Shown here piece after piece: positions 481 through 11,749 of a stretch of DNA of 64,000 bases. Both the position numbers and the translations under genes were made by a program. The notes beneath the pieces were generated by a model that saw only the letters and a list, made by a program, of their open reading frames with translations, was not told the DNA's origin and ran no database searches. This stretch comes from a phage, in assembly GCA_027218345.1 (NCBI GenBank), contig GCA_027218345.1_3950.1; one strand, written 5' to 3'. Each line of letters opens with the position of its first letter. The first letter of the stretch is position 1.

Positions 481-499
481 CTGGCTCTCTATAAAAACC

Positions 500-690
500 T
501 ACCTGCACAATCCTAAAATGATTTTTCTTGCCCGACCTGAGTGTGGTCTGCACGTTTTGAAAATGAAAAAGCTCTTTGGAGATTATCTGCACAGTTTGAA
601 AATGAATTTTCTCTTTGGAGTTCAAAATTCTCTCTACAGATTTCTCTACAGAACTCTACCTGCACAATTCTGAAATGAAAAAGCCCTCCT
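500..690. repeat. iteron-like direct repeats (4 copies of CTGCACRNTTYYRAAAATGA..., 25-35 bp)
   Basis: Copies at about 501-532, 550-584, 588-622, 655-688; also tandem TCTCTACAGA at 627-648; non-coding. Confidence 0.5.
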
Positions 691-751
691 TACCTGAAAA
701 ATTTACCAGATAAGAAAGGCTTAGGCTATTGTGAATATACTACAGAGTTTC

Positions 752-1537
752 TTAGTTCTTTGCGTCTAAGAAGGTAACTTCTGGTGAAGAGAAAACTGTC
801 TCGATATCCTCATCAGTTCTTGCATAGATATAAGTATCTGCATCACTGCCAAATGTTACTGCAATCCTGTGATTGCTCTTCGACAGGTGGGTAACTAGAG
901 CGTTACTCAGAGACATCTTTTCAACCGGAGGGTTACTTTGATGTATCTTACCTTTTCTTCGTCTGAAGAGGGTAACTGCGTTATCTGTGAACACTGCTAC
1001 ACCTGCAAAGTATTCTGGTTCACAGTAGTTCTTCCAACCTGAGAGTAACTTGTGGTACATCTCTCCTTCATAGACATATAGATAAACATCTACACTCTTC
1101 ATCACCTGATTGATGATAACTGTGACGGCTTGAGGGTCAAGTCCATCGATACCTGCACCAATCATAGGTAAACCAACTTTCTTCAACTGATTGACTTCAC
1201 AGTATCTGTTAAGCTGCTTCAAAGATGACTCTAAAGCACTGTATCGGGCATCTTTACCAGTATGAAGTTGGGTGTAAAGGTTAGCTATACGACCTTGTTT
1301 TAAACGTGCTACAGAGAAATTACCTAGTAAATTTTCACAGGGTTTGTGGCGAATGCCACCTGCAAACAGGTAAACTTCTGTGTCAGTATCATACACTTTT
1401 GGATAACGCTTAGAAATAGTTGCTGCAATACCTGCACCCATGAAATTCATACAGTTGCAACCATGACCAATGATGTCAAACTTACCTTTATCAAATGCGT
1501 CAAATATATCGCCATTGATGATTTTTACAATACCCAT
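752..1537 (-). CDS. macro-domain protein (TARG1/DarG-like ADP-ribose hydrolase fold) with about 100-aa C-terminal extension
   Basis: N-terminal GDIF..DIIGHGCNC..MGAGIA and later PMIGAGIDGLD resemble TARG1 GDLF..LAHCIS.DCRMGAGIA / PRIGCGLDRL. Confidence 0.5.
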   Translation of the reverse strand: MGIVKIINGDIFDAFDKGKFDIIGHGCNCMNFMGAGIAATISKRYPKVYDTDTEVYLFAGGIRHKPCENLLGNFSVARLKQGRIANLYTQLHTGKDARYSALESSLKQLNRYCEVNQLKKVGLPMIGAGIDGLDPQAVTVIINQVMKSVDVYLYVYEGEMYHKLLSGWKNYCEPEYFAGVAVFTDNAVTLFRRRKGKIHQSNPPVEKMSLSNALVTHLSKSNHRIAVTFGSDADTYIYARTDEDIETVFSSPEVTFLDAKN

Positions 1538-1738
1538 TTAACATCTCTCCCAAGATTCTTTATCTTCTGAAGGCTTTACACGTTGCCCTTCGTGGTCTAC
1601 CCAGATACATCCACAACCTTCACAGATTACTGGCATTGCATAGCCAGCTTTAAAGTCATCTTCAGTGATAAGACCTTTTAAGTCTCCTGTATCACGCCCG
1701 AACATTTCGATAGCACAATCTTTGCAGAAGTCAGCCAT
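1538..1738 (-). CDS. small Cys-rich (zinc-ribbon-like) protein
   Basis: ORF 1538-1816; probable start at internal Met (MADFCKDC...CEGCGC); CxxC pairs. Confidence 0.3.
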   Translation of the reverse strand: MADFCKDCAIEMFGRDTGDLKGLITEDDFKAGYAMPVICEGCGCIWVDHEGQRVKPSEDKESWERC

Positions 1739-1958
1739 GAATAATTGCCTCTTGAATGATGATACCTTTGCCACAACGACTTTTGAAGTCTTCCAATGGT
1801 TGTGAGATGAAGCCACGCAAGCAATAACTAAATGCTAATTTTTCCCTGTAGGCTATCACATCATTTGCTGTAAATGGAATCACTTTATTTCTTCCAATGA
1901 ATACTGCTGAACGTACAATCTTGCGGGTCTTTTTATCTCTGGCTAGTATTACTTTCAT
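1731..1958 (-). CDS. hypothetical protein
   Basis: 75-aa ORF in co-directional gene array. Confidence 0.3.
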   Translation of the reverse strand: MKVILARDKKTRKIVRSAVFIGRNKVIPFTANDVIAYREKLAFSYCLRGFISQPLEDFKSRCGKGIIIQEAIIHG

Positions 1959-2259
1959 AGTTTACCTTCTCAGTTAGCTCATACAAGTCAACATGCTCAA
2001 TGCTATCAATGTTGATACCAATCTTTTTGAAGCGTTCTATCACTTCGTTGTCAGTCATCCATATCAGACACCAATGATTCTGAATGGATTCTTCAAGAAG
2101 GTCAACACAATCTTTAAAAGTTTTTGTATCACTTCTTGTTCCGACTACTGCGATTGTCCCATACAACCACTTACCATTACCATAAGATACTTGTGCTACG
2201 CCAACTTCTTTATCTTTCTCGTAGTAAACGGCTACAAAGTCTCTTCCATTAATCTGCAT
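1933..2259 (-). CDS. hypothetical protein
   Basis: 108-aa ORF, tightly packed with neighbours. Confidence 0.35.
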   Translation of the reverse strand: MQINGRDFVAVYYEKDKEVGVAQVSYGNGKWLYGTIAVVGTRSDTKTFKDCVDLLEESIQNHWCLIWMTDNEVIERFKKIGINIDSIEHVDLYELTEKVNYESNTSQR

Positions 2260-2261
2260 AG

Positions 2262-2534
2262 TTACTTCCTCGTTTTAAGAACTGCTAAGATTTCTTTAGA
2301 GTCTGGTAAGAACCATGTGTAGTGATTCTCTTTGATTTCTGGATGAGTGTCAACCTTTATTTTGCACTCTTTACCAACATGCTTAAGCTGTGCTGTGATA
2401 CCTTGCATAAAGATGTGACACATTACATTATCCATAATCGTAGGTAAGAAATCAATCCTCATGTAAGTATCTTTCGGTCTCGGTAGAAGTAAGTAACCTT
2501 CTGTGTAGAAAGTTTCATCATTACTTTGTGTCAT
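2262..2534 (-). CDS. hypothetical protein
   Basis: 90-aa ORF; stop abuts next gene. Confidence 0.35.
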   Translation of the reverse strand: MTQSNDETFYTEGYLLLPRPKDTYMRIDFLPTIMDNVMCHIFMQGITAQLKHVGKECKIKVDTHPEIKENHYTWFLPDSKEILAVLKTRK

Positions 2535-2800
2535 TACTGCTTATTCCCTAATAAAATCATATCAATCAAGTTGTTAGCTTTCATAGTACACTGATAGTAC
2601 CCGTCACGATAAAACTCAAGGGCTTCTGATAAGTCTGCACCAGTGTTACCTTTGACAGCATATCTTACATCTTCCTGAGTGTACTTATCACTTTCACTTA
2701 CTTGGGAGTTTTTGAATGTATTGCTCACTTTGTTCGTTGAACACCCTGACATAGTTATCAGTAACACAAACATTATAAAACTCTGGCTTAGTCTTTTCAT
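2534..2800 (-). CDS. outer-membrane lipoprotein, candidate o-spanin
   Basis: Signal peptide with lipobox LITMSGC; start overlaps 3' end of upstream TM protein gene in another frame. Confidence 0.45.
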   Translation of the reverse strand: MKRLSQSFIMFVLLITMSGCSTNKVSNTFKNSQVSESDKYTQEDVRYAVKGNTGADLSEALEFYRDGYYQCTMKANNLIDMILLGNKQ

Positions 2801-3041
2801 ATGTCAGTACCTCTTTTGTGTGCTTATTCTTAGCAAGCACGTCTTTCAAATCATTTTTGTAATTGGTGCTCAGTGTAGCTAATCCTTCCTGATAAGCATC
2901 TTTAGCAACACTTATTAGCTTCTGGTTGTTTAGCTCAGTTTCAGCAACTTGGTAGTCTCTATAAGAGTATCCTCCCCAGACACCTGCCCCAACTAAGAAA
3001 ACAATTATGAAAGTAGCTTGACAGAACTCTTTAAATGTCAT
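2694..3041 (-). CDS. N-terminal-anchored membrane protein, candidate i-spanin
   Basis: Single N-terminal TM segment (FIIVFLVGAGVWGGYSY) then periplasmic helical domain; overlaps lipoprotein gene. Confidence 0.45.
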   Translation of the reverse strand: MTFKEFCQATFIIVFLVGAGVWGGYSYRDYQVAETELNNQKLISVAKDAYQEGLATLSTNYKNDLKDVLAKNKHTKEVLTYEKTKPEFYNVCVTDNYVRVFNEQSEQYIQKLPSK

Positions 3042-3060
3042 TTAACAATCTCCTGAAATG

Positions 3061-3082
3061 AAAAAGGCTCCCGAAGGAGCCT
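3061..3082 (-). terminator. rho-independent terminator (AGGCTCC-CGAA-GGAGCCT hairpin, U-run on minus strand)
   Basis: Perfect 7-bp GC-rich stem with tetraloop; A-run on plus side means U-run in minus transcript. Confidence 0.55.
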
Positions 3083-3093
3083 GTATCTTAACC

Positions 3094-3558
3094 TTAACCG
3101 AGGACTTTAGCAAGGATATTCGCAGCCATCGAAGAAGCTTTTGCAGCAGCAACTACGCCAGCTTTGACAGTGCTATCCTTAATAGCAGATACCGTTGCAG
3201 CATCAGTAAAGAGATAAGTGATTGTTTTGGAACCACTTGTAAAGGAAAGCATAAGGGTAGTTTCCAGATTGAAAGAGCGATACGGAGCACCTTCTTTAAC
3301 GATACCTTCAGCACCTAACTCTGAAGCCTTACCCATATCATAGATAGTCATCAGGTTTTCTTTGTGTGCAGTCGTTGAACCAACACCTTTTACGTGCTTC
3401 TTAACGTTCAACAATGCACGATATTCACGAATGCTGCCATCAGCTTTTACATTAACAGCACGGAAAATTTTACCTTCAAAGTTACCTTGAATCATTTTAC
3501 GAACTACTTCAGATTTGTTTGCCGTATCGTCCAGTGCTACCGTAATGATATTGTTCAT
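3094..3558 (-). CDS. hypothetical protein
   Basis: 154-aa ORF with hairpin terminator downstream. Confidence 0.4.
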   Translation of the reverse strand: MNNIITVALDDTANKSEVVRKMIQGNFEGKIFRAVNVKADGSIREYRALLNVKKHVKGVGSTTAHKENLMTIYDMGKASELGAEGIVKEGAPYRSFNLETTLMLSFTSGSKTITYLFTDAATVSAIKDSTVKAGVVAAAKASSMAANILAKVLG

Positions 3559-3568
3559 AAGTTTTCTC

Positions 3569-4264
3569 TCAATGTTTAACTAACATGGTTTTAATGTGTG
3601 GAAGGATTCTGTTTACCTTCTGAACATTCTTCTCTGTATCTTCTATAAAGCATACTATATTAAAGTAAGGAAGAATGCAAGACTGAATCATCCTCACTTT
3701 CAAACTTTCTGCACTTATAGAGTTAGCTCCAAAACCACGCATAAAAAGCATGTAATCATGCTCTATGTAATGCCTTAAAAACATCTCAGTAGGTACTCTC
3801 TGAGATTCACCTCTCGCTGTCAAGAGTCCAATAGTAGCATGATTAGAGATTGCATCAATAATATTGAAAACATACGTTGGTTTTGCACTTACAGAATCAA
3901 GCAAATTAGTGTACTGTGAAAATGAACCATCAATCAGTTCCGTTGAGCAATCTTCGTGATTAAAATTTGTAAGAACACCATCAATATCTGCTAAGATGAG
4001 GTTACCTTTTTCTACAAGGTCTTTATTGACTATGACTAAACTGTCACGTCTTACACCTATAGATTGCCCCGTCTCTTTATCCACAACGTTCACAATCGGT
4101 TCTGAAGTGTGGAACTCTTCAAGTGAACATACAACTTCTCTTGCAGTGTCTTCAAAATCCCTGCACTGTTCTGGAGTCCATACACAGGAATCAAGACCTA
4201 ACTCATGAGGATGTAAGTCATAAGCATGACACAGGACTTCATCAGACTTTCTTAATTTTTTCAT
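3569..4264 (-). CDS. hypothetical protein, possible HAD-type phosphatase/nucleotidase
   Basis: DIDGVL (DxDG motif I-like) and LLTARGE; weak assignment. Confidence 0.3.
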   Translation of the reverse strand: MKKLRKSDEVLCHAYDLHPHELGLDSCVWTPEQCRDFEDTAREVVCSLEEFHTSEPIVNVVDKETGQSIGVRRDSLVIVNKDLVEKGNLILADIDGVLTNFNHEDCSTELIDGSFSQYTNLLDSVSAKPTYVFNIIDAISNHATIGLLTARGESQRVPTEMFLRHYIEHDYMLFMRGFGANSISAESLKVRMIQSCILPYFNIVCFIEDTEKNVQKVNRILPHIKTMLVKH

Positions 4265-4790
4265 GGTTTACCTTAGAAATGTTTGTTGCAAATTCACATT
4301 GAGCAATAACTTTCATGTTGTTATAGACATCTTGAGAATATTTCTTAGCTTTAGGGATTCTGTACGAATACCCAGCATTATATGATGCTAAAACTTTTTG
4401 TAAAGTCTTCTTTGACTTTGGCTGACCATGCACCTTTGTCCAAAACTCAAGTTCTTTGTGCGTTTCCTTTGCAGCATAGTCAAAGTCTTTTAAGAGTTTC
4501 TTTTTAGCCACATTAGGACTAATTTTGTTACGCTTTACAACAGTCTTCAAGTGATTCTGGAAAATACCATAATCATGTGTCTTTTTATTCTCTACCTTCA
4601 GACCTAACTCTGACTCTTGTAAGGCTATAGCAGCTAGAGTGATACCCCAACCTTTACCCATGTTATTCTCACCATACTGGTAAGCTTTTAACATGTTTAC
4701 TTTTTGGCTAATTGATAGCTCTGGGCAGTCAACTGCATAAGATAAGTGTGCTGTAAACATTAAGCACAAACCTAGAATCAATTTCTTCAT
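4242..4790 (-). CDS. secreted lytic transglycosylase (SLT-domain) protein, candidate endolysin
   Basis: N-terminal signal peptide MKKLILGLCLMFTAHLSYA; SLT-like catalytic region LQESELG...YGIFQ. Confidence 0.5.
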   Translation of the reverse strand: MKKLILGLCLMFTAHLSYAVDCPELSISQKVNMLKAYQYGENNMGKGWGITLAAIALQESELGLKVENKKTHDYGIFQNHLKTVVKRNKISPNVAKKKLLKDFDYAAKETHKELEFWTKVHGQPKSKKTLQKVLASYNAGYSYRIPKAKKYSQDVYNNMKVIAQCEFATNISKVNHEKIKKV

Positions 4791-4856
4791 TGGTTCTCCT
4801 GTTTAGTTTATCGTGACAACAATTATACAGCACTCTGCACAAAATACAAATAAAAA

Positions 4857-4878
4857 AGGCCGCCGAAGCAGCCTTTTA
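4857..4878. terminator. weak hairpin flanked by A-run and T-run (possible bidirectional terminator)
   Basis: AAAAAAGGCCGCCGAAGCAGCCTTTT between rIIB-like gene and transglycosylase gene; stem imperfect. Confidence 0.3.
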
Positions 4879-4890
4879 AGAAATTACTTA

Positions 4891-6000
4891 TTAGATTTCA
4901 CGTTTACGTTGAGAGATGAGTTCACCAGCAGTGCCAACGATGACATGCAAAGCTTCAGTCTTACCGTCCCATGCTTCCAGCACTTTACGTTGATTATCAA
5001 CGATTGCTGCAACTTCATAACGAGAGGAACGCATCTTCATATCGTTGTAATCAGTTGGTACGGATACAACGTCTCGTGGATGGACACGAACCTTCAGAAT
5101 TGTATCACCTGAGAAGCAACGAACATAATCCCAAGCACCAACGTGAAGACCTTGAGAGCAAGTCACGTTACGGTTATTATCAACCATCCAACGTGGCATT
5201 TCTACAACGTTACCCAAATCATTAGGTACTCTGTAGGTGTGAGAGTCAACCAGCTTGCCTTCACGAGTAGAGACTTTCTTCCAACCAATGATGTAACCTT
5301 CTTCATCAATTTCAACATCAAGGTGAGATACAAATCCCCAAAGTTGTTCTACGGAATCTTTAGATGGGTTTTCCATCAGCTTTTCGAAGAACATTACAAG
5401 GCGTTCAAAACCCTTATCTCCAGTCTTCATCATGTGAAGAATACGGTCAACCAGAGTAGAACGCATCTCAACAGCACCGTAGAATAACTTATCACCTTTG
5501 ATTGTGATAGCACCCTGAGTGAAGTTTTCGATAGACTTACGAATGTTCATCAGTTCAAAGGCTTTCTTAAACTCACCTTTCACAACATGAACTACAATCT
5601 CTTGATAGTTCGGATGAGTAGACTCAACAATTTCAGACTCTGAACCATAAGTCATAATTACAGAGTCACCAGTAATCATGTACTCAATCTTGTCATCTTT
5701 CTGCATAGCTTCATGTAGTTTATTTACTGGAGCTTTCTGTACAGACTCTTTAACAACCTTTTCAACTGGTTTGTCAGCTTTCTTTTTAAAGGTCTTAGCA
5801 ACTTGCTTCAAAGTCTTCGTAGCTGGTGTAGAAGTCGCCTTCTTATTCCCTTTTAAGGTTGCTTCATGACGCTCTACAGCACGACCGACTGAACGGGTTG
5901 AGGTGTTAAATTTCTGTGCAATAGCTGTTTTAGTCAGCTTGCCCTCTTTAACCAGTTTGTAAATTTCTGCGTCAATCTGTGCTTTAGTTTTAGTAGTCAT
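4891..6000 (-). CDS. rIIB: rIIB-like protein with N-terminal HTH
   Basis: 369 aa, lies immediately downstream of rIIA-like gene; N-terminal helix-turn-helix-like segment and Lys-rich linker; identity by synteny. Confidence 0.4.
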   Translation of the reverse strand: MTTKTKAQIDAEIYKLVKEGKLTKTAIAQKFNTSTRSVGRAVERHEATLKGNKKATSTPATKTLKQVAKTFKKKADKPVEKVVKESVQKAPVNKLHEAMQKDDKIEYMITGDSVIMTYGSESEIVESTHPNYQEIVVHVVKGEFKKAFELMNIRKSIENFTQGAITIKGDKLFYGAVEMRSTLVDRILHMMKTGDKGFERLVMFFEKLMENPSKDSVEQLWGFVSHLDVEIDEEGYIIGWKKVSTREGKLVDSHTYRVPNDLGNVVEMPRWMVDNNRNVTCSQGLHVGAWDYVRCFSGDTILKVRVHPRDVVSVPTDYNDMKMRSSRYEVAAIVDNQRKVLEAWDGKTEALHVIVGTAGELISQRKREI

Positions 6001-6043
6001 CTTATTACTCTCTCTTGTCAGTTAATAATCATTTTGTGATGCT

Positions 6044-6074
6044 ATTTTAAGGGGCTTTGAAGCCCCTTGTCAAA
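6044..6074 (-). promoter_or_regulatory. candidate sigma70-like promoter with GC hairpin in spacer (TTGACA-N19-TAAAAT)
   Basis: Minus-strand TTGACA at 6069-6074, TAAAAT at 6044-6049; spacer contains GGGGCTT-CAA-AGCCCC hairpin; upstream of rIIB-like gene. Confidence 0.3.
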
Positions 6075-6078
6075 TACT

Positions 6079-8445
6079 TTAATCGTAATCTGTTGTACCT
6101 TCTGGAACACATTTTACATCAAAGCCTAAGAACTTACTCACTTCGATGGGTGACACTTTATTCCAATCTAAATGAGAAAGCAAGAAGTTTTCTTGTTTTC
6201 TTTTTGAAAGGTAGTTTGTCACCTTAATAACCATACGGTCACCAGCTTTCTTAATTTTCTTGTACAGCTTTGTATCATTGTCAAGACAGTCTTTCAAAGT
6301 TTTCAATACACTAATGGTATAAGTGTATGCAAATGGTGCAGCAACGTATTGGATTTTACCGAACATTGCCTCTACAGCCTCTTCATTTCCTTCTAGGAAG
6401 ATAGTTTTGTTTGTATCCCTTGAATAACAATACCCGCGAGAAATCTTCCTGTTATTAAACGTAAAGTCTCTGGCAATAATCCAACTGCTTGTAAGGTCAA
6501 GGACACCATTCATATAGATACGCGTCATATATCTGTTATGGTTAATCCAGTGAACATCAGTTAAGCTGTCGTTCAAGAGTTTCTCATCTACTTCAATCCA
6601 ATCTTCTGGTATCTTTTTCCAATTTGCTTTTCGGAAAACATAGACTGTCTTACCTGTAACATTAGCAACTGACTTAGCTACATCTTCTGGAGATGAGCAA
6701 AAACATTCACCATCAACTGTGTCACCAATTGCCTTAATGTAAAGCTGAGGTTCTTCAATTGTGTCTAAGTCCTCTGACACCTCTTTGTAGGAGGCTACAC
6801 CTTCTGCTGGAACAGCTTTCCAGAGTTTTACAACACCTCTTACAGCTTCTTTACGCTGATAATGGTGTTCCTTATCAGACATCTTCACAATCTTTAACAA
6901 ACTCTTATCAAGTTTGTGTAGATTGATTAGGTCGTCTAACTCTTTCTCATTAGAGAATACGAAGACAATACCGTTGTATCTGTGAAACAGACTTGACTCG
7001 CTGGCATAGTCTCGACATGCACCACGTAGAATCTGGTTGCGTCCTACAGTCTTCTCAGTACCGTTTTTATTGCGACGGTCATTAATCACGAACAAAAACT
7101 GTTCAATTTGGCTTTTACGCATTACACCAAAGATATTGAACATACTTGCCTCTTGAGTGTAGGAAAGTGCTGTTGCACGAATCTTACTCTCTAAAGAGTT
7201 GAACTTGACATAAGCAACTGGGTTATAAAGATAATCTACTTTAGGGATATTGTTCCCGTTCCTATCAACCTTAATATTGCCTTTACCGTCACGTTCATAA
7301 ATGACTGAGCCGTCTTCTGCGTAGATAATCCCACGACGAATGTTTAGCAATTCTTCTTCCAGAGAATCAAGCTTAACGCCTCCCCACTCTAGCTTTGGAC
7401 ACACAGCATTAAACATCTCTCGTGAGTTCAAACGTAACTCAGCATAAGCCTGTGCAGCATCCATGAGTGTAGGTTGGCTATTAACTTTCTTGATAACATC
7501 CTTTGTAATGGCTTCAGTTATCTTTTTAGTAGCCTCAATGATAACATTTTTTGTAGTGTCATTCATCTGCAATGCTTCACGAGAAGCTGCAATAGCAACT
7601 GAACCAATAGGCATGTAGATGTTTACAAGGTCTACGCTCCTACGGAAAAATTCTGGCAATACTTTGAAGAAATCATCTCCAAGTAATGCTTCCATGTTAA
7701 CAGGGTAGGCAATGTTACCCATCACCACATTAAACTCTGTTCTGTTAGCGCCAGAACGCCAGCTTTGCTTATGAATCATGGCATCATAAACACCTTCTTC
7801 ACGGGCAATGACGTTCATATCTGCTAATACATCGTCGTACTCAATATTACTTTCTGGTTTTACAGTGAAGTATGAGTACACATTCCCAGCTTCTTCAAAG
7901 AACTTTGAGATACGGTGGTCAGCAACTGCCACACGTACAGCTAAACCATTAGGTTCTTTTGTTGGGTTAGTTGTCAGCTTAGTTACTTGAGGGATACCAT
8001 TCTCAAGATAAACAGAGTACTTATTAACAACACCGTCAACATAGCTAGATACTGTGAATGACTGAGCAATTGCAAATGGTGACTTTGAGCCGATACCCAT
8101 TGCACCAATGTAGTCATTAGAGTCATTCTTCGTAGAAGCTCCATAGTTTAGGTACAAACTCATAACTTTATCATGAGTCAATCCAGTTCCAAAATCACGA
8201 ACTTCGAAGTAAGGCTCAAAACGAGTAGGTAAATGCACATGGAATGGAATGTTCTCTTTTCCAGCTTCTTTCTGAGCATCTACTGCGTTACATGACAGTT
8301 CACGAATCACTGCCCTTTCTTTAAAGGTGTATACACCAGAACTCAAAAGGCTGAACATCTCAGGTGTCATTGTAATCTGTGCTTGAGATGTCTCTAAAGA
8401 AGTTGAACTCTTAATCACTTCTGCGTGGTCATTTACCATGCGCAT
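6079..8445 (-). CDS. rIIA: rIIA-like protein (GHKL ATPase-like N-terminus)
   Basis: 788 aa; N-terminal IRELSCNAVDA resembles Bergerat-fold N-box; size and pairing with rIIB-like gene; RBS AAGAGGAAA upstream. Confidence 0.55.
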   Translation of the reverse strand: MRMVNDHAEVIKSSTSLETSQAQITMTPEMFSLLSSGVYTFKERAVIRELSCNAVDAQKEAGKENIPFHVHLPTRFEPYFEVRDFGTGLTHDKVMSLYLNYGASTKNDSNDYIGAMGIGSKSPFAIAQSFTVSSYVDGVVNKYSVYLENGIPQVTKLTTNPTKEPNGLAVRVAVADHRISKFFEEAGNVYSYFTVKPESNIEYDDVLADMNVIAREEGVYDAMIHKQSWRSGANRTEFNVVMGNIAYPVNMEALLGDDFFKVLPEFFRRSVDLVNIYMPIGSVAIAASREALQMNDTTKNVIIEATKKITEAITKDVIKKVNSQPTLMDAAQAYAELRLNSREMFNAVCPKLEWGGVKLDSLEEELLNIRRGIIYAEDGSVIYERDGKGNIKVDRNGNNIPKVDYLYNPVAYVKFNSLESKIRATALSYTQEASMFNIFGVMRKSQIEQFLFVINDRRNKNGTEKTVGRNQILRGACRDYASESSLFHRYNGIVFVFSNEKELDDLINLHKLDKSLLKIVKMSDKEHHYQRKEAVRGVVKLWKAVPAEGVASYKEVSEDLDTIEEPQLYIKAIGDTVDGECFCSSPEDVAKSVANVTGKTVYVFRKANWKKIPEDWIEVDEKLLNDSLTDVHWINHNRYMTRIYMNGVLDLTSSWIIARDFTFNNRKISRGYCYSRDTNKTIFLEGNEEAVEAMFGKIQYVAAPFAYTYTISVLKTLKDCLDNDTKLYKKIKKAGDRMVIKVTNYLSKRKQENFLLSHLDWNKVSPIEVSKFLGFDVKCVPEGTTDYD

Positions 8446-8472
8446 AATACTTTCCTCTTAGTTTACTGTTAA

Positions 8473-8649
8473 ATTACTTATTAAACATTTTACCAGAACC
8501 ACCACACATAGGGCAACAACCTGCTCTTGTATACCCTTCTCCGTTACAGTAGTCACACTTCTTGTGTTCTGCAAAGTACTTACAAAGAAGATAAACAAGG
8601 ACTGCTACACTACCAAGTGACAGTAAAATTTCTATCCAATATGCTTGCA
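8473..8649 (-). CDS. small membrane/zinc-ribbon protein (58 aa, below track cutoff)
   Basis: ATG ORF MQAYWIEILLSLGSVAVLVYLL...CDYCNGEG...CCPMCGGSG; one TM plus CxxC...CxxC. Confidence 0.3.
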
Positions 8650-8967
8650 TGACTCACCTCTCATATTTTTGTAAAGGATAAAGCTTCTGTCATGGACGAT
8701 ACTTGTAGATACTGCAAAGTTACTTTCAAGCATCTGTTTGTTTGGATTGTAGAAGCTTTTTTTAAACTCGTCAAGTGCAAATTGGTGATTATCTGGAAGA
8801 CCTTTTATGCAGACCTTTATTGTGATTGCTGCTGCGACCTTGCCAGTCAGTTCTTCTTTAGCTGCTACTAAAATTTTGTTAAGGAACTTATGACCATCTT
8901 CAGGATTCTTGATGTTCTCCCAACGTTCTTCTAAGATAATGTTGATGTTCATCTCTTTTATTTTCAT
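8632..8967 (-). CDS. hypothetical protein
   Basis: 111-aa ORF. Confidence 0.4.
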   Translation of the reverse strand: MKIKEMNINIILEERWENIKNPEDGHKFLNKILVAAKEELTGKVAAAITIKVCIKGLPDNHQFALDEFKKSFYNPNKQMLESNFAVSTSIVHDRSFILYKNMRGESCKHIG

Positions 8968-8984
8968 AGTTTTCTCCAGAAATT

Positions 8985-9006
8985 AAAAAGGCTCCCGTAG
9001 GAGCCT
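8985..9006 (-). terminator. rho-independent terminator (AGGCTCC-CGTA-GGAGCCT)
   Basis: Same stem sequence as hairpins at 3065 and 40080; A-run on plus side; downstream of nadV. Confidence 0.55.
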
Positions 9007-9020
9007 CTTATCATATACTT

Positions 9021-10802
9021 TTAAAGCTGCTTGTCAATATTATTTCGAATATCGCCAAGAGTTGTGTAACCGAACTGCTCAGAGTCACTAAAGACTAAAC
9101 GTAAAGCACAAGCTGGATGTTCAAGCACATCTGCAAAGCTCTGGAATCCATAGCCATCTACAGCTTTCAGCTTATCACCATCCCACATGGGCGCTACACC
9201 ACCAAAAGCAGACTTCTTAACACCGCTATCTGTTTTAGGGTCTTTTGCAAGCATAATCTCTTTACCACCAATGCTTGCAAGAGTTGCTTTGACAGCAAAT
9301 GCAAAGGTGTCACGAGTCATGTACTGGTAAGTATAAGAACCTACACCAAACACTACGTTAGAGCTTGCAAAACCCATTTCATACAGACGCTTCAGGATTT
9401 CGTTTGCACGTTCCAACGTGATAGAGTCACCATAGATAAGGCCGATATGTTCATCCAGTACCTTAAAACCTTTAGAGTTGATAGTTCCTCCAAAGATGTT
9501 ATACAAGGTCTTAATAGCTCCATCAATCTCTGCTACAGGACGTGTTACAACGTTTGCAGAACCAACCATATAAGCATTCTTCAACATCACTGTATCAGCA
9601 ACTTCAAAGTCTTCTCTGTCAACAACCATTTCGTAGCCTTCTGACAGTAGCCATCCAGCAATGCCATAGTTGATGTTTTCAAGCTTCATGTTCAGAACAG
9701 CATTCAACATTGTGTCACTAGCTTCCAGCTTGCTTAGGTGCTCGTAATAAGCCTTCTTAGCACACTCTAAGTGGATTGCTTTATAGCCTGTGACAATATG
9801 TACAGGGTCTCCAGAGTCAGGGCGAATTACCAGTTTGCCGTCACGTTCCATAATCTCTTTACGAAGTGCTGGTAATATAACTGATACAGTTCTCCAGAAG
9901 TTATAAGTATCTGAAACAACACTTGCAATACCAGTTGGGTAAGTTTCTGTTAAGAAACGACGGAAGGTTTGTAACTCACCTTTAAAGCGTCTTTCTTCTT
10001 CAATCAACTCATTACCACCTTCCCAAGCAATGTTTGCACACATTACAGAGTGTTCAGTGGCTGGTACAGAACTGCCAATATCAGAAATTGGGTAAGACTG
10101 TCCATAGATGCGTTTAGCTGTATATACAGCAGGGAAGCTATCAGTTCCTTTAAAGCTGGTTAAGTGACCTACAGCATTAAATGCGTCATCGGTAAAGCCG
10201 GACATACCACGCATAGCAAAGTCATGGCACTGATAAGGTAAATGTAAGTCATTGTCACAAGTAAGGTCAGCCCACTTCTTACAGATGCGTTTATAATGCA
10301 ATGCAATAGTCGCAATGGTACAAGCCTTCCAAATCTCAGCAGAGAAAGCATCTTCCAGATAACCTGCTACCCAATGGAAACCTGAAACAGTGTTCTGGAA
10401 GACAATCATTGGGACACGCATAGGGACAACTGTGCCTTCTTCTACAGCGTATACTTCAACTGGTAGATAACCTAAGTCGTGAAGTGCTTCCCAATGCTCT
10501 CGACCGATAGCATCTTTACCCAGAACACCATTCATGACTTCTAAGATTTCGTCAATTGCTTCTTTTTTATCACGTTCAAAGAAAGTGGCGTTCCAGTGGT
10601 CTATCAAGTAATCTTTAACAAAACGTTGAATACCAAAAGCCACTACACCATCAATTGCTAAGGGGCTGTTAAACCATTTATCACTACGTGGTGTCAGGTT
10701 GAACATCAAATATTCTGTTGCACTAGGATATTGATTGATATGGCCTGATTTGTAGCAATCTGCGTTAAGTCCTGCTGGAACTGCATAAAGTGATTTAGTC
10801 AT
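9021..10802 (-). CDS. nadV: nicotinamide phosphoribosyltransferase (NadV/NAMPT-like)
   Basis: NAPRTase-family features (N-terminal ...NADCYKSGHINQYP..., about 590 aa); start set at internal Met because the track start lies inside an intergenic hairpin. Confidence 0.6.
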   Translation of the reverse strand: MTKSLYAVPAGLNADCYKSGHINQYPSATEYLMFNLTPRSDKWFNSPLAIDGVVAFGIQRFVKDYLIDHWNATFFERDKKEAIDEILEVMNGVLGKDAIGREHWEALHDLGYLPVEVYAVEEGTVVPMRVPMIVFQNTVSGFHWVAGYLEDAFSAEIWKACTIATIALHYKRICKKWADLTCDNDLHLPYQCHDFAMRGMSGFTDDAFNAVGHLTSFKGTDSFPAVYTAKRIYGQSYPISDIGSSVPATEHSVMCANIAWEGGNELIEEERRFKGELQTFRRFLTETYPTGIASVVSDTYNFWRTVSVILPALRKEIMERDGKLVIRPDSGDPVHIVTGYKAIHLECAKKAYYEHLSKLEASDTMLNAVLNMKLENINYGIAGWLLSEGYEMVVDREDFEVADTVMLKNAYMVGSANVVTRPVAEIDGAIKTLYNIFGGTINSKGFKVLDEHIGLIYGDSITLERANEILKRLYEMGFASSNVVFGVGSYTYQYMTRDTFAFAVKATLASIGGKEIMLAKDPKTDSGVKKSAFGGVAPMWDGDKLKAVDGYGFQSFADVLEHPACALRLVFSDSEQFGYTTLGDIRNNIDKQL

Positions 10803-10816
10803 CTTGTAATCTCTCT

Positions 10817-10840
10817 CAAAAGTGGGGCTTACAAGCCCCA
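10817..10840 (-). terminator. hairpin (TGGGGCTT-ACA-AGCCCCA) between prs and nadV; terminator/attenuator candidate
   Basis: 7-bp GC stem with A-run on plus side (U-rich tail on minus transcript). Confidence 0.4.
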
Positions 10841-10849
10841 TGTAATAAT

Positions 10850-11749
10850 TTAATCAAGGTTTGCTACAGTTACTTGACCATAGTGTGACAAACCACGGTC
10901 TTTCGCTTCACCTAAAGTATTTGTAGTGTAGATATGGTCGATTCCGTTGTCAAGCAAGTTTTCAACACCTTTAGAGAAAATCCCATGTGTTACATATAGT
11001 TCCACACGTTTTGCACCTGCTTCACGAAGATGTTTGGCTGCTTCTATGAAGGTTCTACCACCATCACAGATATCATCCAGAATCATGACGGTTTTATCTG
11101 TCAAATCAACATCATCAAGGATTCGCATACCAGTAATTTCACCAGTCTTAAGGTTACGCACTTTAGACATTGTGATGTATGGTTTATCCACCTCTTTAGC
11201 GGTCTCTGCAACCTTCTTAGCAGCACCTGCATCTGGGGCTACTAAGTAATCAATCAGTGGGTCATTTGCATAGTGGACTGCAATTTCCTTTTGAGGAATA
11301 CTCTGGAAGCAATTGAAAAGGTTATCTGGAACGTAACTGTGAGGGTCAACTGCACAGACTGCACCAAATCCCATTGCATTCACCTGTTTAGCAAAAACCT
11401 TTAAAGCTGCTGCATCACCTTTAAACATGTGACGGTCATATCGTGCATTTGGTAAGTAGTAAAAAATGACAGTCTTCAGGGCATAATCATGAGGAACTAA
11501 ATCATCAATTGATTCTTTAGCAAGTGCCACAGCAAACAATGTGTCTTTGTCATAACCCTTTACAATCATAACCACATTGTTAATAGATGATGCTGCATAA
11601 GCAGTAAAATCAACAAGCTCTTGTGAAAAATGTCCACCAATCTCACCAGAAGGGAATTGGATGATGTTAAACTCTTCTTCATGAGTTCCTTTAGTCGGTG
11701 AATGAACTGTAACACGGATAGATGTTTTCATAGTTTCTCTCTTAGTCAA
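10850..11749 (-). CDS. prs: ribose-phosphate pyrophosphokinase (PRPP synthetase)
   Basis: PRTase signature VMILDDICDGGRT and Prs-like N-terminal half; 299 aa. Confidence 0.7.
   Translation of the reverse strand: MTKRETMKTSIRVTVHSPTKGTHEEEFNIIQFPSGEIGGHFSQELVDFTAYAASSINNVVMIVKGYDKDTLFAVALAKESIDDLVPHDYALKTVIFYYLPNARYDRHMFKGDAAALKVFAKQVNAMGFGAVCAVDPHSYVPDNLFNCFQSIPQKEIAVHYANDPLIDYLVAPDAGAAKKVAETAKEVDKPYITMSKVRNLKTGEITGMRILDDVDLTDKTVMILDDICDGGRTFIEAAKHLREAGAKRVELYVTHGIFSKGVENLLDNGIDHIYTTNTLGEAKDRGLSHYGQVTVANLD

What the first reader, a model, noticed from the sequence alone, without database searches (positions are those of the whole stretch)
752..1537. TARG1/DarG-type macro-domain protein: candidate counter-defence ADP-ribose hydrolase
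The N-terminal 150 aa show the macro-domain pattern of the TARG1/DarG branch (GDIF..DIIGHGCNC..MGAGIA and PMIGAGIDGLD, versus TARG1 GDLF..LAHCIS.DCRMGAGIA and PRIGCGLDRL). It is fused to an uncharacterised 100-aa C-terminal domain. Macro domains of this branch reverse ADP-ribosylation of DNA or protein (as the DarG antitoxin does). A phage-encoded copy in the early region, in the same transcriptional block as the NAD+ salvage genes, suggests it reverses host ADP-ribosyl-based defence or removes ADP-ribose-derived signals.
Basis: partly seen in the sequence, partly recalled or inferred. Interest (0 to 1): 0.75.

Follow-up and report, generated by a model that had tools for sequence, protein, structure and literature searches.

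The report
Phage macro-domain ADP-ribose hydrolase, orphan tail
This Felix-O1-like phage gene encodes an ADP-ribose-processing macro domain of the same family as two recently described phage anti-immunity enzymes (T4 AdfM and Vibrio-phage Adpp), fused to a fast-evolving C-terminal domain of unknown fold, so it is very probably a counter-defence enzyme whose exact target has not been tested.

Summary
The ORF is real: 752..1537, minus strand, 261 aa, in a Felixounavirus genome. Residues 1-157 form a confident macro domain of the ALC1-like/TARG1/Poa1p class. It is not TARG1/DarG-type in its chemistry. The catalytic Lys (TARG1 K84, DarG K80) is an invariant Gln (Q90). Q90 and N28 match Gln85 and Asn27 of SCO6735, a Gln-type macrodomain that removes thymidine-linked ADP-ribose from DNA. 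Two phage homologues are characterised. T4 Tk.4/AdfM (anti-DarTG2) is 34% identical (E 2e-22). Vibrio-phage Adpp is 28-31% identical; it is an ADPR-1''-phosphate phosphatase that feeds the NARP1 NAD+ pathway against aRES. The window copy shares AdfM's short post-Gln loop. Every NARP1-adjacent Adpp examined has a long loop. NARP1 does lie in the window, but 7.5 kb, 14 genes and three terminator-like hairpins away. The C-terminal 105 aa have no detectable homologue or fold match and evolve faster than the macro domain. In some relatives the whole gene is swapped for a 39%-identical allele. Verdict: a probable counter-defence hydrolase, most likely AdfM-like, and a new two-domain variant of a known kind.

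The parts
752..1537 (-). Complete gene: 261-aa protein with an N-terminal macro domain and an orphan C-terminal domain. It is the ortholog of FelixO1 'unknown', heid_44 'putative phosphatase' and Bas63 g95 'putative phosphatase'.
   Evidence: ORF list. PHROG_335 'phosphatase' E 2e-113 over residues 1-260. 92-98% identical proteins in about 200 Felixounavirus records.
1067..1537 (-). Macro domain, residues 1-157. It carries the adenine-contact G9-D10, loop 1 H25-G-C-N28-C...M33-G-A-G36-I-A38, the catalytic-position motif N86-L-Y-T-Q90 followed by a short 7-residue loop, and loop 2 P124-M-I-G127-A-G129-I-D131-G.
   Evidence: Pfam PF01661. PDB profile hits. Model with pLDDT mostly 84-96 in this region. 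Foldseek matches to TARG1, DarG and Poa1p. Invariant columns. Loop classes.
755..1066 (-). C-terminal domain, residues 158-261. It is beta-rich (six strands and one or two short helices), has no detectable homologue outside this protein family and no fold match.
681..722 (-). Terminator-like hairpin (17-bp stem followed by a T-run) 30 nt after the stop codon. It marks the gene as the last of its transcription unit.
   Evidence: Consensus scan. This is a pattern match only. Terminator-like sites were not enriched over shuffles in the region (5 found, 7.3 expected).
1538..1738 (-). Upstream 66-aa Cys-rich ORF (CxxC...CxxCxC). Its stop codon abuts the macro gene's ATG, so the two are likely co-transcribed and possibly translationally coupled.
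   Evidence: ORF list and sequence. PHROG_2210, unknown function, E 1e-40. It stays 98.5% conserved even where the macro gene is replaced.
9021..11749 (-). NARP1 pair: Adps at 10850..11749 and Namat at 9021..10841. It is a possible functional partner if the macro domain acts as Adpp does. It is context for the gene, not part of it.
   Evidence: NCBIfam Prs-like and Nampt-like hits. The same pair occurs in all 259 related records. NARP1 was discovered as genes 79-80 of Bas63, and Bas63 is a Felixounavirus.

Best explanation
The gene encodes a phage counter-defence enzyme. Its N-terminal macro domain binds ADP-ribose and hydrolyses the substituent on the ribose C1'' position. It uses the Gln/Asn-type active site (Q90 positioned by N28) described for SCO6735, not the Lys of TARG1 and DarG. 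The most likely specific role is that of T4 Tk.4/AdfM: during infection it strips the ADP-ribose that the host DarT2 toxin places on thymidines of phage single-stranded DNA, so replication can proceed. The lineage-specific, fast-evolving C-terminal domain is inferred to be a targeting or specificity module, for example one that binds a host defence protein, DNA or the replisome. What is shown here: the fold, the family, the active-site residues, the homology to AdfM and Adpp, the subtype, the dispensability of the Bas63 ortholog in the laboratory, and allelic replacement. What is inferred: the substrate, the defence system that is countered, and any role of the C-terminal domain.
For: Macro fold and ALC1-like class. 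H25, N28 and Q90 are invariant. They align to SCO6735 N27 and Q85, both essential for its dT-ADPr-DNA hydrolase activity and for rescue from DarT toxicity (PMC9411070); SCO6735 is also the top profile hit in the PDB. The closest characterised relative is T4 Tk.4 (34%, E 2e-22) and its ECO4 ortholog (35%, E 5e-24). Deleting tk.4 sensitises T4 to DarTG2. The window protein and Tk.4 share HGCNC and NLYTQ and the short 7-residue post-Gln loop. In my sample 0 of 33 short-loop macros lie within 2 kb of NARP1, against 16 of 35 long-loop macros (Fisher p = 3.6e-6, not corrected for phylogeny). The phiEa21-4 ortholog was already annotated 'Tk.4'. The best defence-library match is DarG, over the macro domain only. 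Two features are typical of an accessory, arms-race gene. Bas63 g95 scores about 0.6-1.1 on laboratory hosts in PhageMaP. The gene is also replaced by a 39%-identical allele in a backbone whose other genes are mostly 94-100% identical.
Against: There are no functional data for any Felixounavirus copy, and no paper found links Bas63 to DarTG2. The AdfM mechanism itself is inferred from genetics only. The NJ tree is unresolved at depth, with bootstraps below 50%, so placement in the AdfM subtype rests on pairwise scores and one loop. Loop length does not predict substrate mechanistically, because the DNA-active SCO6735 has a long loop. The genome carries NARP1, which gives an Adpp-type role a clear purpose. 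This isolate has a private G131D change in the diphosphate-binding loop whose effect is unknown. The C-terminal domain is roughly neutral in charge and shows no similarity to DarG's acidic DarT-binding domain.
Confidence: 0.45

Rival explanations
1. Adpp-like role. The macro domain is an ADP-ribose-1''-phosphate phosphatase. When an aRES (RES-domain) defence phosphorolyses NAD+ to nicotinamide and ADPR-1''P, it regenerates ADPR. The phage's own NARP1 enzymes (Adps and Namat, 7.5 kb upstream) can then rebuild NAD+. This would be a dispersed 'NARP1-AP' pathway.
For: It belongs to the same macro family as the biochemically validated Gary Adpp (28%, E 8e-15) and River4 (31%, E 4e-17), aligned end to end with the same H-x-x-N-C, N-x-Y-x-Q and G-x-G motifs. 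The genome encodes NARP1, which was discovered in the congeneric Bas63, on the same strand. aRES systems occur in E. coli, Klebsiella and Enterobacter, which are hosts or host relatives. Osterman et al. scanned only two genes either side of NARP1, so Felixounaviruses would have been missed; Table S1 contains none. NARP1-adjacent Adpp proteins are polyphyletic within the family, so the activity may be family-wide. GenBank and PHROG call the protein a 'phosphatase'.
Against: It is not in the NARP1 operon: 14 genes and three terminator-like hairpins intervene, including one directly after Namat. All NARP1-adjacent macros examined have the long post-Gln loop, whereas this one has the short Tk.4 type. 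It is less similar to Adpp than to Tk.4. Short-loop relatives mostly have no NARP1 gene within 10 kb. T4 has none, to my knowledge (not checked here).
Confidence: 0.3
2. A different ADP-ribose substrate. The enzyme might reverse ADP-ribosylation of RNA (for example CmdTAC-type defence) or of proteins. It might instead clear the ADPR-1''P/Appr>p by-products of RNA 2'-phosphotransferase reactions, as yeast Poa1p does. That would be a housekeeping or RNA-repair role, not DarT2 or aRES counter-defence.
For: Macro domains of this class are promiscuous: SCO6735 and TARG1 act on both DNA and protein. The Poa1p H23 equivalent (H25) is conserved, and Poa1p is among the top fold hits. A gene annotated 'polynucleotide kinase' lies in the same block. 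The macro domain is basic, pI 8.3-9.2.
Against: The 'polynucleotide kinase' has no Pfam support, and no RNA ligase or Tpt1 was seen nearby. The equivalents of Poa1p S30 and F152 are not conserved (F32; D131 or Gly). No phage precedent for these roles exists in this family. The allelic replacement pattern fits an arms-race gene better than a housekeeping one.
Confidence: 0.15
3. A non-catalytic ADP-ribose binder or sponge, or a decaying gene. In this isolate the G131D change in the diphosphate loop may have inactivated hydrolysis, leaving a binding protein or a pseudo-enzyme.
For: D131 is unique among 30 full-length relatives, which all have Gly in the conserved G-A-G-I-G-G loop. The ortholog is dispensable in the laboratory.
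Against: TARG1 naturally has Asp at this position, so the fold tolerates it. All other active-site residues are intact. The ORF is full length and 98% identical to relatives.
Confidence: 0.07

Closest known systems
T4 Tk.4 = AdfM (anti-DarT factor, macrodomain; HIDEN-SEQ preprint 10.1101/2025.11.20.689424)
   Same: It is a stand-alone phage macro domain of the same Gln-type family: 34% identity over the whole domain (E 2e-22), identical HGCNC and NLYTQ motifs, and the same short post-Gln loop. It is accessory in the laboratory.
   Different: Tk.4 is 155 aa with no C-terminal domain and is acidic (ECO4 ortholog pI 5.3, against 8.6 here). It sits in a different genomic context (tk-vs region). 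T4 has no NARP1 to my knowledge. An anti-DarTG2 phenotype has been shown for T4 only.
Adpp of the NARP1-AP pathway (Vibrio phage Gary KNV71_gp137; Osterman et al. 2026, 10.64898/2026.01.28.702374)
   Same: Same macro family and motifs, 28-31% identity. The phage also encodes Adps and Namat.
   Different: Adpp is encoded inside the NARP1 operon, whereas this gene is 14 genes away behind terminator-like sites. Adpp proteins have a 10-15-residue aromatic loop after the Gln, against 7 residues here. Adpp has no C-terminal domain.
SCO6735 (Streptomyces coelicolor) and BT1257: Gln-type ALC1-like macrodomains (PMC9411070; PDB 5E3B, 2FG1)
   Same: SCO6735 is the top profile hit among solved structures (1.5e-19). 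Its essential Gln85 and Asn27 correspond to the invariant Q90 and N28. It hydrolyses dT-ADPr on DNA without a catalytic Lys.
   Different: These are bacterial, single-domain proteins with a long mobile loop. SCO6735 Val25 corresponds to Gly26 here. There is no phage context.
DarG2 antitoxin, chimallivirus AdfM (PhiKZ gp104) and human TARG1
   Same: Same macro class and fold. DarG has the same two-part logic: a macro domain plus a second C-terminal domain.
   Different: Those enzymes use a catalytic Lys (K80, K78 and K84 respectively), which is Gln here. The NCBIfam DarG score of 48 bits is far below the 250-bit cut-off. The C-terminal domain here is unrelated to DarG's DarT-binding domain by sequence, fold search and charge. 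There is no adjacent DarT.
Yeast Poa1p (ADP-ribose-1''-phosphate phosphatase; PDB 6LFQ)
   Same: It shares the H-x-C-N-C...G-G-I-A N-terminal motif, matches by Foldseek at E 6e-10, and is the source of the 'phosphatase' annotation.
   Different: The equivalents of Poa1p S30 and F152 (the residues mutated in 6LFT and 6LFU) are not conserved. Ser occupies the Gln position, by my own alignment from the remembered Poa1p sequence (not a tool result). Its cellular role is in tRNA splicing.

Membership tests
Macro domain superfamily (Pfam PF01661) | Profile score above the Pfam gathering threshold, and the alpha/beta/alpha macro fold with two Gly-rich ADP-ribose-binding loops | tested here: met
   28.2 bits against a 22-bit cut-off. 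Foldseek E about 1e-10 and TM 0.77-0.86 to TARG1, DarG and Poa1p. G9-D10, M33-G-A-G36 and G127-A-G129 are conserved.
ALC1-like class (TARG1, DarG, SCO6735, Poa1p-like) | Best sequence and profile matches are to members of this class, not to MacroD, PARG or macroH2A types | tested here: met
   SCO6735 1.5e-19, TARG1 1e-18, BT1257 about 3e-18, Mtb DarG 1.2e-15 and Poa1p 2.9e-14. MacroD-type matches are 4e-3 or weaker.
TARG1-type hydrolase | Catalytic dyad Lys84/Asp125 | tested here: not met
   K84 aligns to the invariant Q90. D125 aligns to D131, which is Gly in 29 of 30 relatives.
DarG antitoxin (DarTG2) | Catalytic Lys80 | tested here: not met
   The position is occupied by Q90. This follows from the TARG1 and SCO6735 alignments together with the published equivalence K80 = K84 = Q85.
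DarG antitoxin (DarTG2) | Full-length equivalog score, a C-terminal DarT-binding domain, and an adjacent darT gene | tested here: not met
   NCBIfam antitoxin_DarG scores 48.3 bits against a 250-bit cut-off and matches profile positions 3-150 of 338 only. PADLOC DarG matches positions 14-146 of 329 only. The C-terminal domain has no match. The neighbours are phage genes of unknown function.
Gln-type ALC1-like macrodomains (SCO6735-like) | Gln at the catalytic-Lys position, held by an Asn in the H-x-C-N motif (SCO6735 Gln85 and Asn27) | tested here: met
   Q90 and N28 are invariant in all 21 family members aligned, and in 67 of 68 wider relatives for the Gln. Alignment to SCO6735. Residue roles come from PMC9411070.
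Gln-type ALC1-like macrodomains (SCO6735-like) | Hydrolysis of thymidine-linked ADP-ribose on ssDNA | not testable with these tools
   This needs a biochemical assay.
Phage AdfM (T4 Tk.4 type) | Homology to T4 Tk.4 over the whole macro domain, with the same motif subtype | tested here: met
   34% identity, E 2e-22. ECO4 ortholog 35%, E 5e-24. HGCNC and NLYTQ are identical and both have the 7-residue loop. The tree grouping is only weakly supported.
Phage AdfM (T4 Tk.4 type) | Required for phage growth on DarTG2-carrying hosts | not testable with these tools
   No published phenotype was found for Felixounaviruses. The PhageMaP defence panel of 33 Gao et al. systems yielded no reported hit for g95; 'DarTG' does not occur in that paper's text and aRES post-dates it.
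Adpp / NARP1-AP | Homology to Gary Adpp | tested here: met
   28% identity, E 8e-15 to Gary. 31% identity, E 4e-17 to River4.
Adpp / NARP1-AP | Encoded within the NARP1 operon (within two genes of Adps or Namat, as defined by the authors) | tested here: not met
   The gene is 7.5 kb and 14 genes downstream of Namat. Terminator-like hairpins lie at 9009..8986, 4877..4854 and 3082..3065. Table S1 contains no Felixounavirus.
Adpp / NARP1-AP | The same genome encodes Adps and Namat | tested here: met
   Window 9021..11749. These are orthologs of Bas63 g79-80.
Adpp / NARP1-AP | Long (10-15 aa) aromatic loop after the Gln. This is my own empirical marker for NARP1-adjacent macros, not a published criterion. 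| tested here: not met
   The window loop is 7 aa. All 14 Table S1 representatives, plus L077 and L080, are long.
Adpp / NARP1-AP | ADPR-1''-phosphate phosphatase activity | not testable with these tools
   This needs an LC-MS assay as in Osterman et al.
Poa1p-like phosphatase | Residues probed in the Poa1p structures (H23, S30, F152) | tested here: inconclusive
   The H23 equivalent (H25) is conserved. S30 and F152 align to F32 and D131/Gly by my reading of the partial alignments. The mutant names come, and their functional meaning was not checked in the primary paper.

The most novel reading that the evidence does not exclude
The protein may be a phage-built functional analogue of DarG with two layers. 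The Gln-type macro domain would be bifunctional at ribose C1'': it would both erase DarT2's thymidine-ADP-ribose marks and convert aRES-made ADPR-1''P into ADPR for the phage's own NARP1. The orphan, rapidly swapping C-terminal domain would be a new fold that binds and blocks a variable host defence protein or recruits the enzyme to replicating DNA. The discrete alleles (about 95%, 65% and 39% identity, and the unrelated tail in the phiEa21-4 group) would then be specificity variants matched to different host immune repertoires.
Probability: 0.12. Interest if true: 0.7.

Novelty: new variant of a known kind. Interest (0 to 1): 0.45.

Why it matters
Felixounaviruses are widely used Salmonella and E. 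coli biocontrol and therapy phages. Bas63, a member of the genus, is the phage in which NARP1 was discovered. If its macro gene (g95) is an Adpp, the largest group of NARP1-carrying coliphages would already be protected against aRES. The published figure that 15% of NARP1 phages carry the phosphatase would then be a substantial underestimate, caused by a two-gene search window. If it is an AdfM instead, it extends anti-DarTG2 macrodomains to a third phage lineage. It would also add an unexplained second domain that evolves like a specificity determinant. In either case the two activities now assigned to one macro family, DNA de-ADP-ribosylation and ADPR-1''P dephosphorylation, can be compared directly in a single genetically tractable phage.

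Tried and rejected
1. Fold search to separate TARG1, DarG and Poa1p: all tie at E about 1e-10, so it does not discriminate.
2. NJ phylogeny of 66 macro domains with 200 bootstraps: the deep nodes have under 50% support, so the window copy could not be placed in an AdfM or an Adpp clade. A first attempt with Biopython bootstrapping timed out.
3. NARP1 adjacency as a family-wide property: rejected, because only 5 of the 50 nearest macro-only IMG/VR loci have any Adps- or Namat-like gene within 10 kb.
5. The C-terminal domain as an acidic ssDNA mimic like the DarG C-terminal domain or AdfB: the net charge is about 0 and is not conserved across alleles, so nothing supports this.
6. An RNA-repair context: the 'polynucleotide kinase' neighbour has no Pfam support, and the other neighbours are of unknown function.
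7. A structured RNA in the downstream non-coding region: no Rfam match at E of 0.1 or better.
8. Literature searches for a DarTG2 or aRES phenotype of any Felixounavirus found none.
It was re-run without that row.
Full report
**What is there.** The window belongs to a Felixounavirus (FelixO1-like myovirus). The first 6 kb are about 95% identical to VpaE1_ev78, KhF3, UAB_Phi87 and some 230 other records. The reported ORF exists at 752..1537 on the minus strand. It starts with ATG and encodes 261 aa. All the quoted motifs are present. Pfam Macro is matched above its gathering threshold (28.2 against 22 bits, residues 25-141). PHROG_335 ('phosphatase') matches over the whole length at E 2e-113.

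**Distribution.** The full-length protein occurs only in Felixounavirus and close kin. 257 phage records cover at least 80% of the query, in identity classes of about 92-98% and about 64-67%. The N-terminal 155 aa alone have 30-44% identical homologues in about 2,500 other phage records.

**Fold and class.** An AlphaFold2 model built from 21 sequences has mean pLDDT 80.9. Blocks within residues 1-160 are mostly 84-96. Foldseek against the PDB returns TARG1 (1.6e-10), Thermus DarG (4.9e-10) and yeast Poa1p (5.9e-10) essentially tied. A profile of the family finds SCO6735 (1.5e-19), TARG1 (1e-18), BT1257, Mtb DarG (1.2e-15) and Poa1p (2.9e-14), while MacroD-type domains score 4e-3 or weaker.

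**Active site.** The family-invariant residues are H25-G-C-N28-C, M33-G-A-G36-I-A38, N86-L-Y-T-Q90 and P124-x-I-G127-A-G129.
- The catalytic Lys of TARG1 (K84), and by the published equivalence DarG K80, aligns to Q90.
- TARG1 D125 aligns to D131. That Asp is private to this isolate: 29 of 30 full-length relatives and all database clusters have Gly. The 'IDGLD versus LDRL' resemblance is therefore coincidental.
- The missing Lys does not imply inactivity. SCO6735 has Gln85 at this position, held by Asn27. Both residues are essential, and the enzyme removes thymidine-linked ADP-ribose from DNA and rescues cells from DarT (PMC9411070). Q90 and N28 are the equivalents here.
- The protein fails DarG membership. 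NCBIfam antitoxin_DarG gives 48 bits against a 250-bit cut-off, and both that model and PADLOC DarG match the macro part only.

**Two characterised phage homologues.**
- *Adpp.* Osterman et al. (bioRxiv 10.64898/2026.01.28.702374) showed that RES-domain 'aRES' defences convert NAD+ to nicotinamide and ADPR-1''-phosphate, which NARP1 cannot use. A Poa1p-like macro protein encoded inside some NARP1 operons, Adpp from Vibrio phage Gary, dephosphorylates it to ADPR and restores NAD+ synthesis. The window protein aligns end to end with Gary Adpp (28%, E 8e-15) and with River4 Adpp (31%, E 4e-17). River4 has the Adps-macro-Namat operon.
- *AdfM.* The HIDEN-SEQ preprint (10.1101/2025.11.20.689424) found that T4 tk.4 is the single gene needed for growth on DarTG2, and named it AdfM. 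T4 Tk.4 (NP_049723, 'contains A1pp phosphatase motif') is 34% identical to the window protein (E 2e-22). Its ECO4 ortholog is 35% identical (E 5e-24). Both share HGCNC and NLYTQ exactly.
- Tk.4, Adpp and the window protein thus belong to one Gln-type family. The chimallivirus AdfM (PhiKZ gp104) is a different, Lys-type DarG2-like macrodomain.

**Which of the two does the window copy resemble?** An NJ tree of 66 macro domains does not resolve the deep nodes. Ounavirinae copies cluster together with 46-62% support. NARP1-adjacent Adpp proteins are polyphyletic. One structural marker does separate the groups, namely the loop between the catalytic Gln and the conserved Tyr.
- The loop is 7 residues (Q-x-x-[PT]-G-x-[ND]-...) in the window copy, all Ounavirinae alleles, the T4 Tk.4 clade and TARG1.
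- It is 10-15 residues and aromatic-rich in all 14 Table S1 representatives. The same is true of my loci L080 and L077, which have a NARP1-like gene within 2 kb.
- Table S1 motif counts are NLYGQ 75, NVYGQ 30, NAYTQ 11, NLHAQ 4 and NLYTQ 2. The two NLYTQ entries are truncated and have the long loop.
- The contingency table (0 of 33 against 16 of 35) gives Fisher p = 3.6e-6. The sequences are phylogenetically non-independent. Loop length also has no proven link to substrate, since the DNA-active SCO6735 has a long loop.

Together with the higher similarity to Tk.4, this tilts the call towards an AdfM-like role without settling it.

**Context.** The gene lies at the distal end of a long minus-strand block: Adps (10850..11749), Namat (9021..10841), two small ORFs, rIIA, rIIB, an SLT-like lysin, a 'polynucleotide kinase' without Pfam support, spanins, four small ORFs of unknown function, and then the macro gene. 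The Adps/Namat pair corresponds to Bas63 genes 79-80, in which NARP1 was discovered, and Bas63 is a Felixounavirus. The 'NAD+ salvage genes' are therefore NARP1. They do not form one operon with the macro gene. Terminator-like hairpins lie at 9009..8986 (directly after Namat), 4877..4854 and 3082..3065, and a 17-bp-stem hairpin at 722..681 follows the macro gene's stop codon. Sigma-70-like promoter matches are modestly enriched (44 against 31.6 +/- 5.3). That is weak support at best for host-polymerase ('early') transcription. Expression timing was not established.

**Dispensability.** In PhageMaP (bioRxiv 10.1101/2024.10.10.617714) Bas63 gene 95, 'putative phosphatase', lies 15 genes after g80. 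Its scores are about 0.62-1.13 on laboratory hosts and about 0.95-1.04 on the defence strains shown, similar to the unchallenged g79 and g80. The main text does not list it among the counters to the 33 Gao et al. systems. The term 'DarTG' does not occur in that paper, and aRES was described later. This fits a conditionally useful accessory gene.

**The C-terminal domain (residues 158-261).** By every test available it is an orphan.
- There is no Pfam or PADLOC match.
- An exhaustive phmmer search of 1.84 billion representatives returned three hits: one full-length family member, one fragment, and one marginal repeat protein.
- It evolves faster than the macro domain: 53%, 49% and 26% identity against 76%, 76% and 49% in three allele classes.
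- In Erwinia phages phiEa104 and phiEa21-4, which I take to be another Ounavirinae genus and whose gene is annotated 'Tk.4', the macro domain is followed by a 105-aa tail with no detectable similarity.
- Its charge is about neutral and is not conserved, so it does not look like the acidic ssDNA-mimicking DarG C-terminal domain or ICP1 AdfB.

Its role as a targeting or specificity module is inference only.

**Allelic replacement.** Contig L004 is 95% identical in DNA to window 1952..11520. Most of its neighbouring proteins are 94-100% identical to the window's, and two small ORFs are 83-90% identical. Its macro-CTD protein is only 39% identical. That gene is bracketed by a 98.5%-identical upstream ORF and by 97.7%-identical downstream DNA, and its first ~140 nt still fall in a stretch of 84% nucleotide identity. 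The same allele occurs in L032 and L033. L033's contig length equals that of Salmonella phage Si3. Such cassette exchange in a conserved backbone is typical of loci under host-driven diversifying pressure.

**Conclusion.** It needs correction on the chemistry, which is Gln-type and not TARG1/DarG Lys-type. It also needs correction on the coincidental Asp and on the operon claim.

I assign about 0.85 to 'counter-defence hydrolase acting at ribose C1'' of an ADP-ribose adduct'. That splits into AdfM-like DNA de-ADP-ribosylation (0.45), Adpp-like ADPR-1''P phosphatase serving NARP1 (0.30, with possible overlap as a bifunctional enzyme), other substrates (0.15) and a binder or decaying gene (0.07).

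The macro domain is a new member of a family whose counter-defence functions were published in 2025-2026. The fusion to a fast-evolving orphan domain, and the dispersed arrangement relative to NARP1, make it a new variant and not a new kind.

Noticed in passing
window 752-1537, compared with locus L004:10001-10780 (also L032, L033): The whole macro-CTD gene is replaced by a 39%-identical allele in genomes whose flanking genes are mostly 94-100% identical and whose downstream DNA is 97.7% identical. The 5' ~140 nt of the gene still lie in a stretch of 84% nucleotide identity, which suggests a recombination breakpoint inside the gene. The allele's protein cluster has 96 member sequences.
   Followed up: partly
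window 1145-1147 (codon GAT, residue D131): This isolate has Asp where 29 of 30 full-length relatives and all database clusters have Gly, in the conserved diphosphate-binding loop G-A-G-I-G-G. It is a single-base change that happens to recreate TARG1's Asp125 position. Its effect on activity is unknown, and a sequencing error cannot be excluded.
   Followed up: partly
window 486-693: The roughly 520-bp non-coding gap downstream of the macro gene holds an array of 35-36-nt direct repeats sharing the core CTGCAC(A/G)NTT(T/C)TGAAAATGA. The copies start at 486, 547, 586 and 643/659 and are 66-83% identical. There is no Rfam match. They could be promoter or regulator-binding repeats ahead of the next minus-strand gene cluster.
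   Followed up: partly
loci L034:8483-9265 and L035:9998-10780 (Erwinia phages phiEa104 and phiEa21-4 group): The Erwinia-phage orthologs have Gln in place of the otherwise invariant His25 (AQGCNC), an acidic macro domain (pI 5.0-5.7 against 8.3-9.2) and a 105-aa tail with no detectable similarity to the Felixounavirus C-terminal domain. GenBank annotates the phiEa21-4 gene as 'Tk.4'.
   Followed up: partly
window 1538-1738 (minus strand): A 66-aa Cys-rich ORF (CxxC ... CxxCxC, zinc-ribbon-like; PHROG_2210, unknown function) ends exactly where the macro gene starts. It stays 98.5% conserved even where the macro gene is swapped. It may be a co-translated partner.
   Followed up: no
window 1731-1958 (minus strand), compared with L004:9560-9787: A second small ORF two genes upstream of the macro gene is also replaced in the Si3-type contig, with only 32% identity over 37 aa. 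The variable patch may therefore be larger than one gene.
   Followed up: no
window 3569-4264 (minus strand): The gene annotated 'polynucleotide kinase' in relatives and in PHROG_3970 has no Pfam match at E of 0.01 or better, so the annotation looks weakly founded.
   Followed up: no
window 9021-11749 and the relatives: In many relatives (for example VpaE1, Si3, Mushroom and skuden) the match to the Adps/Namat region is split in two by an HNH homing-endonuclease gene that this window lacks. A terminator-like hairpin lies directly after Namat at 9009..8986.
   Followed up: no
literature: Table S1 of 10.64898/2026.01.28.702374: The published NARP1-AP census scanned only two genes on each side of NARP1 and lists no Escherichia or Salmonella phage. 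About 250 Felixounavirus-type genomes carry both NARP1 and a same-family macro gene 14 genes apart. The reported 15% association may therefore be an underestimate if this macro domain has Adpp activity.
   Followed up: partly
loci L079 and L080 (172-kb and 372-kb contigs), L077, L043: A few uncultured-phage contigs have a long-loop macro gene within 0.7-2 kb of a Namat-like or Adps-like gene. These are probably additional NARP1-AP operons that are not among the cultured phages of Table S1.
   Followed up: no
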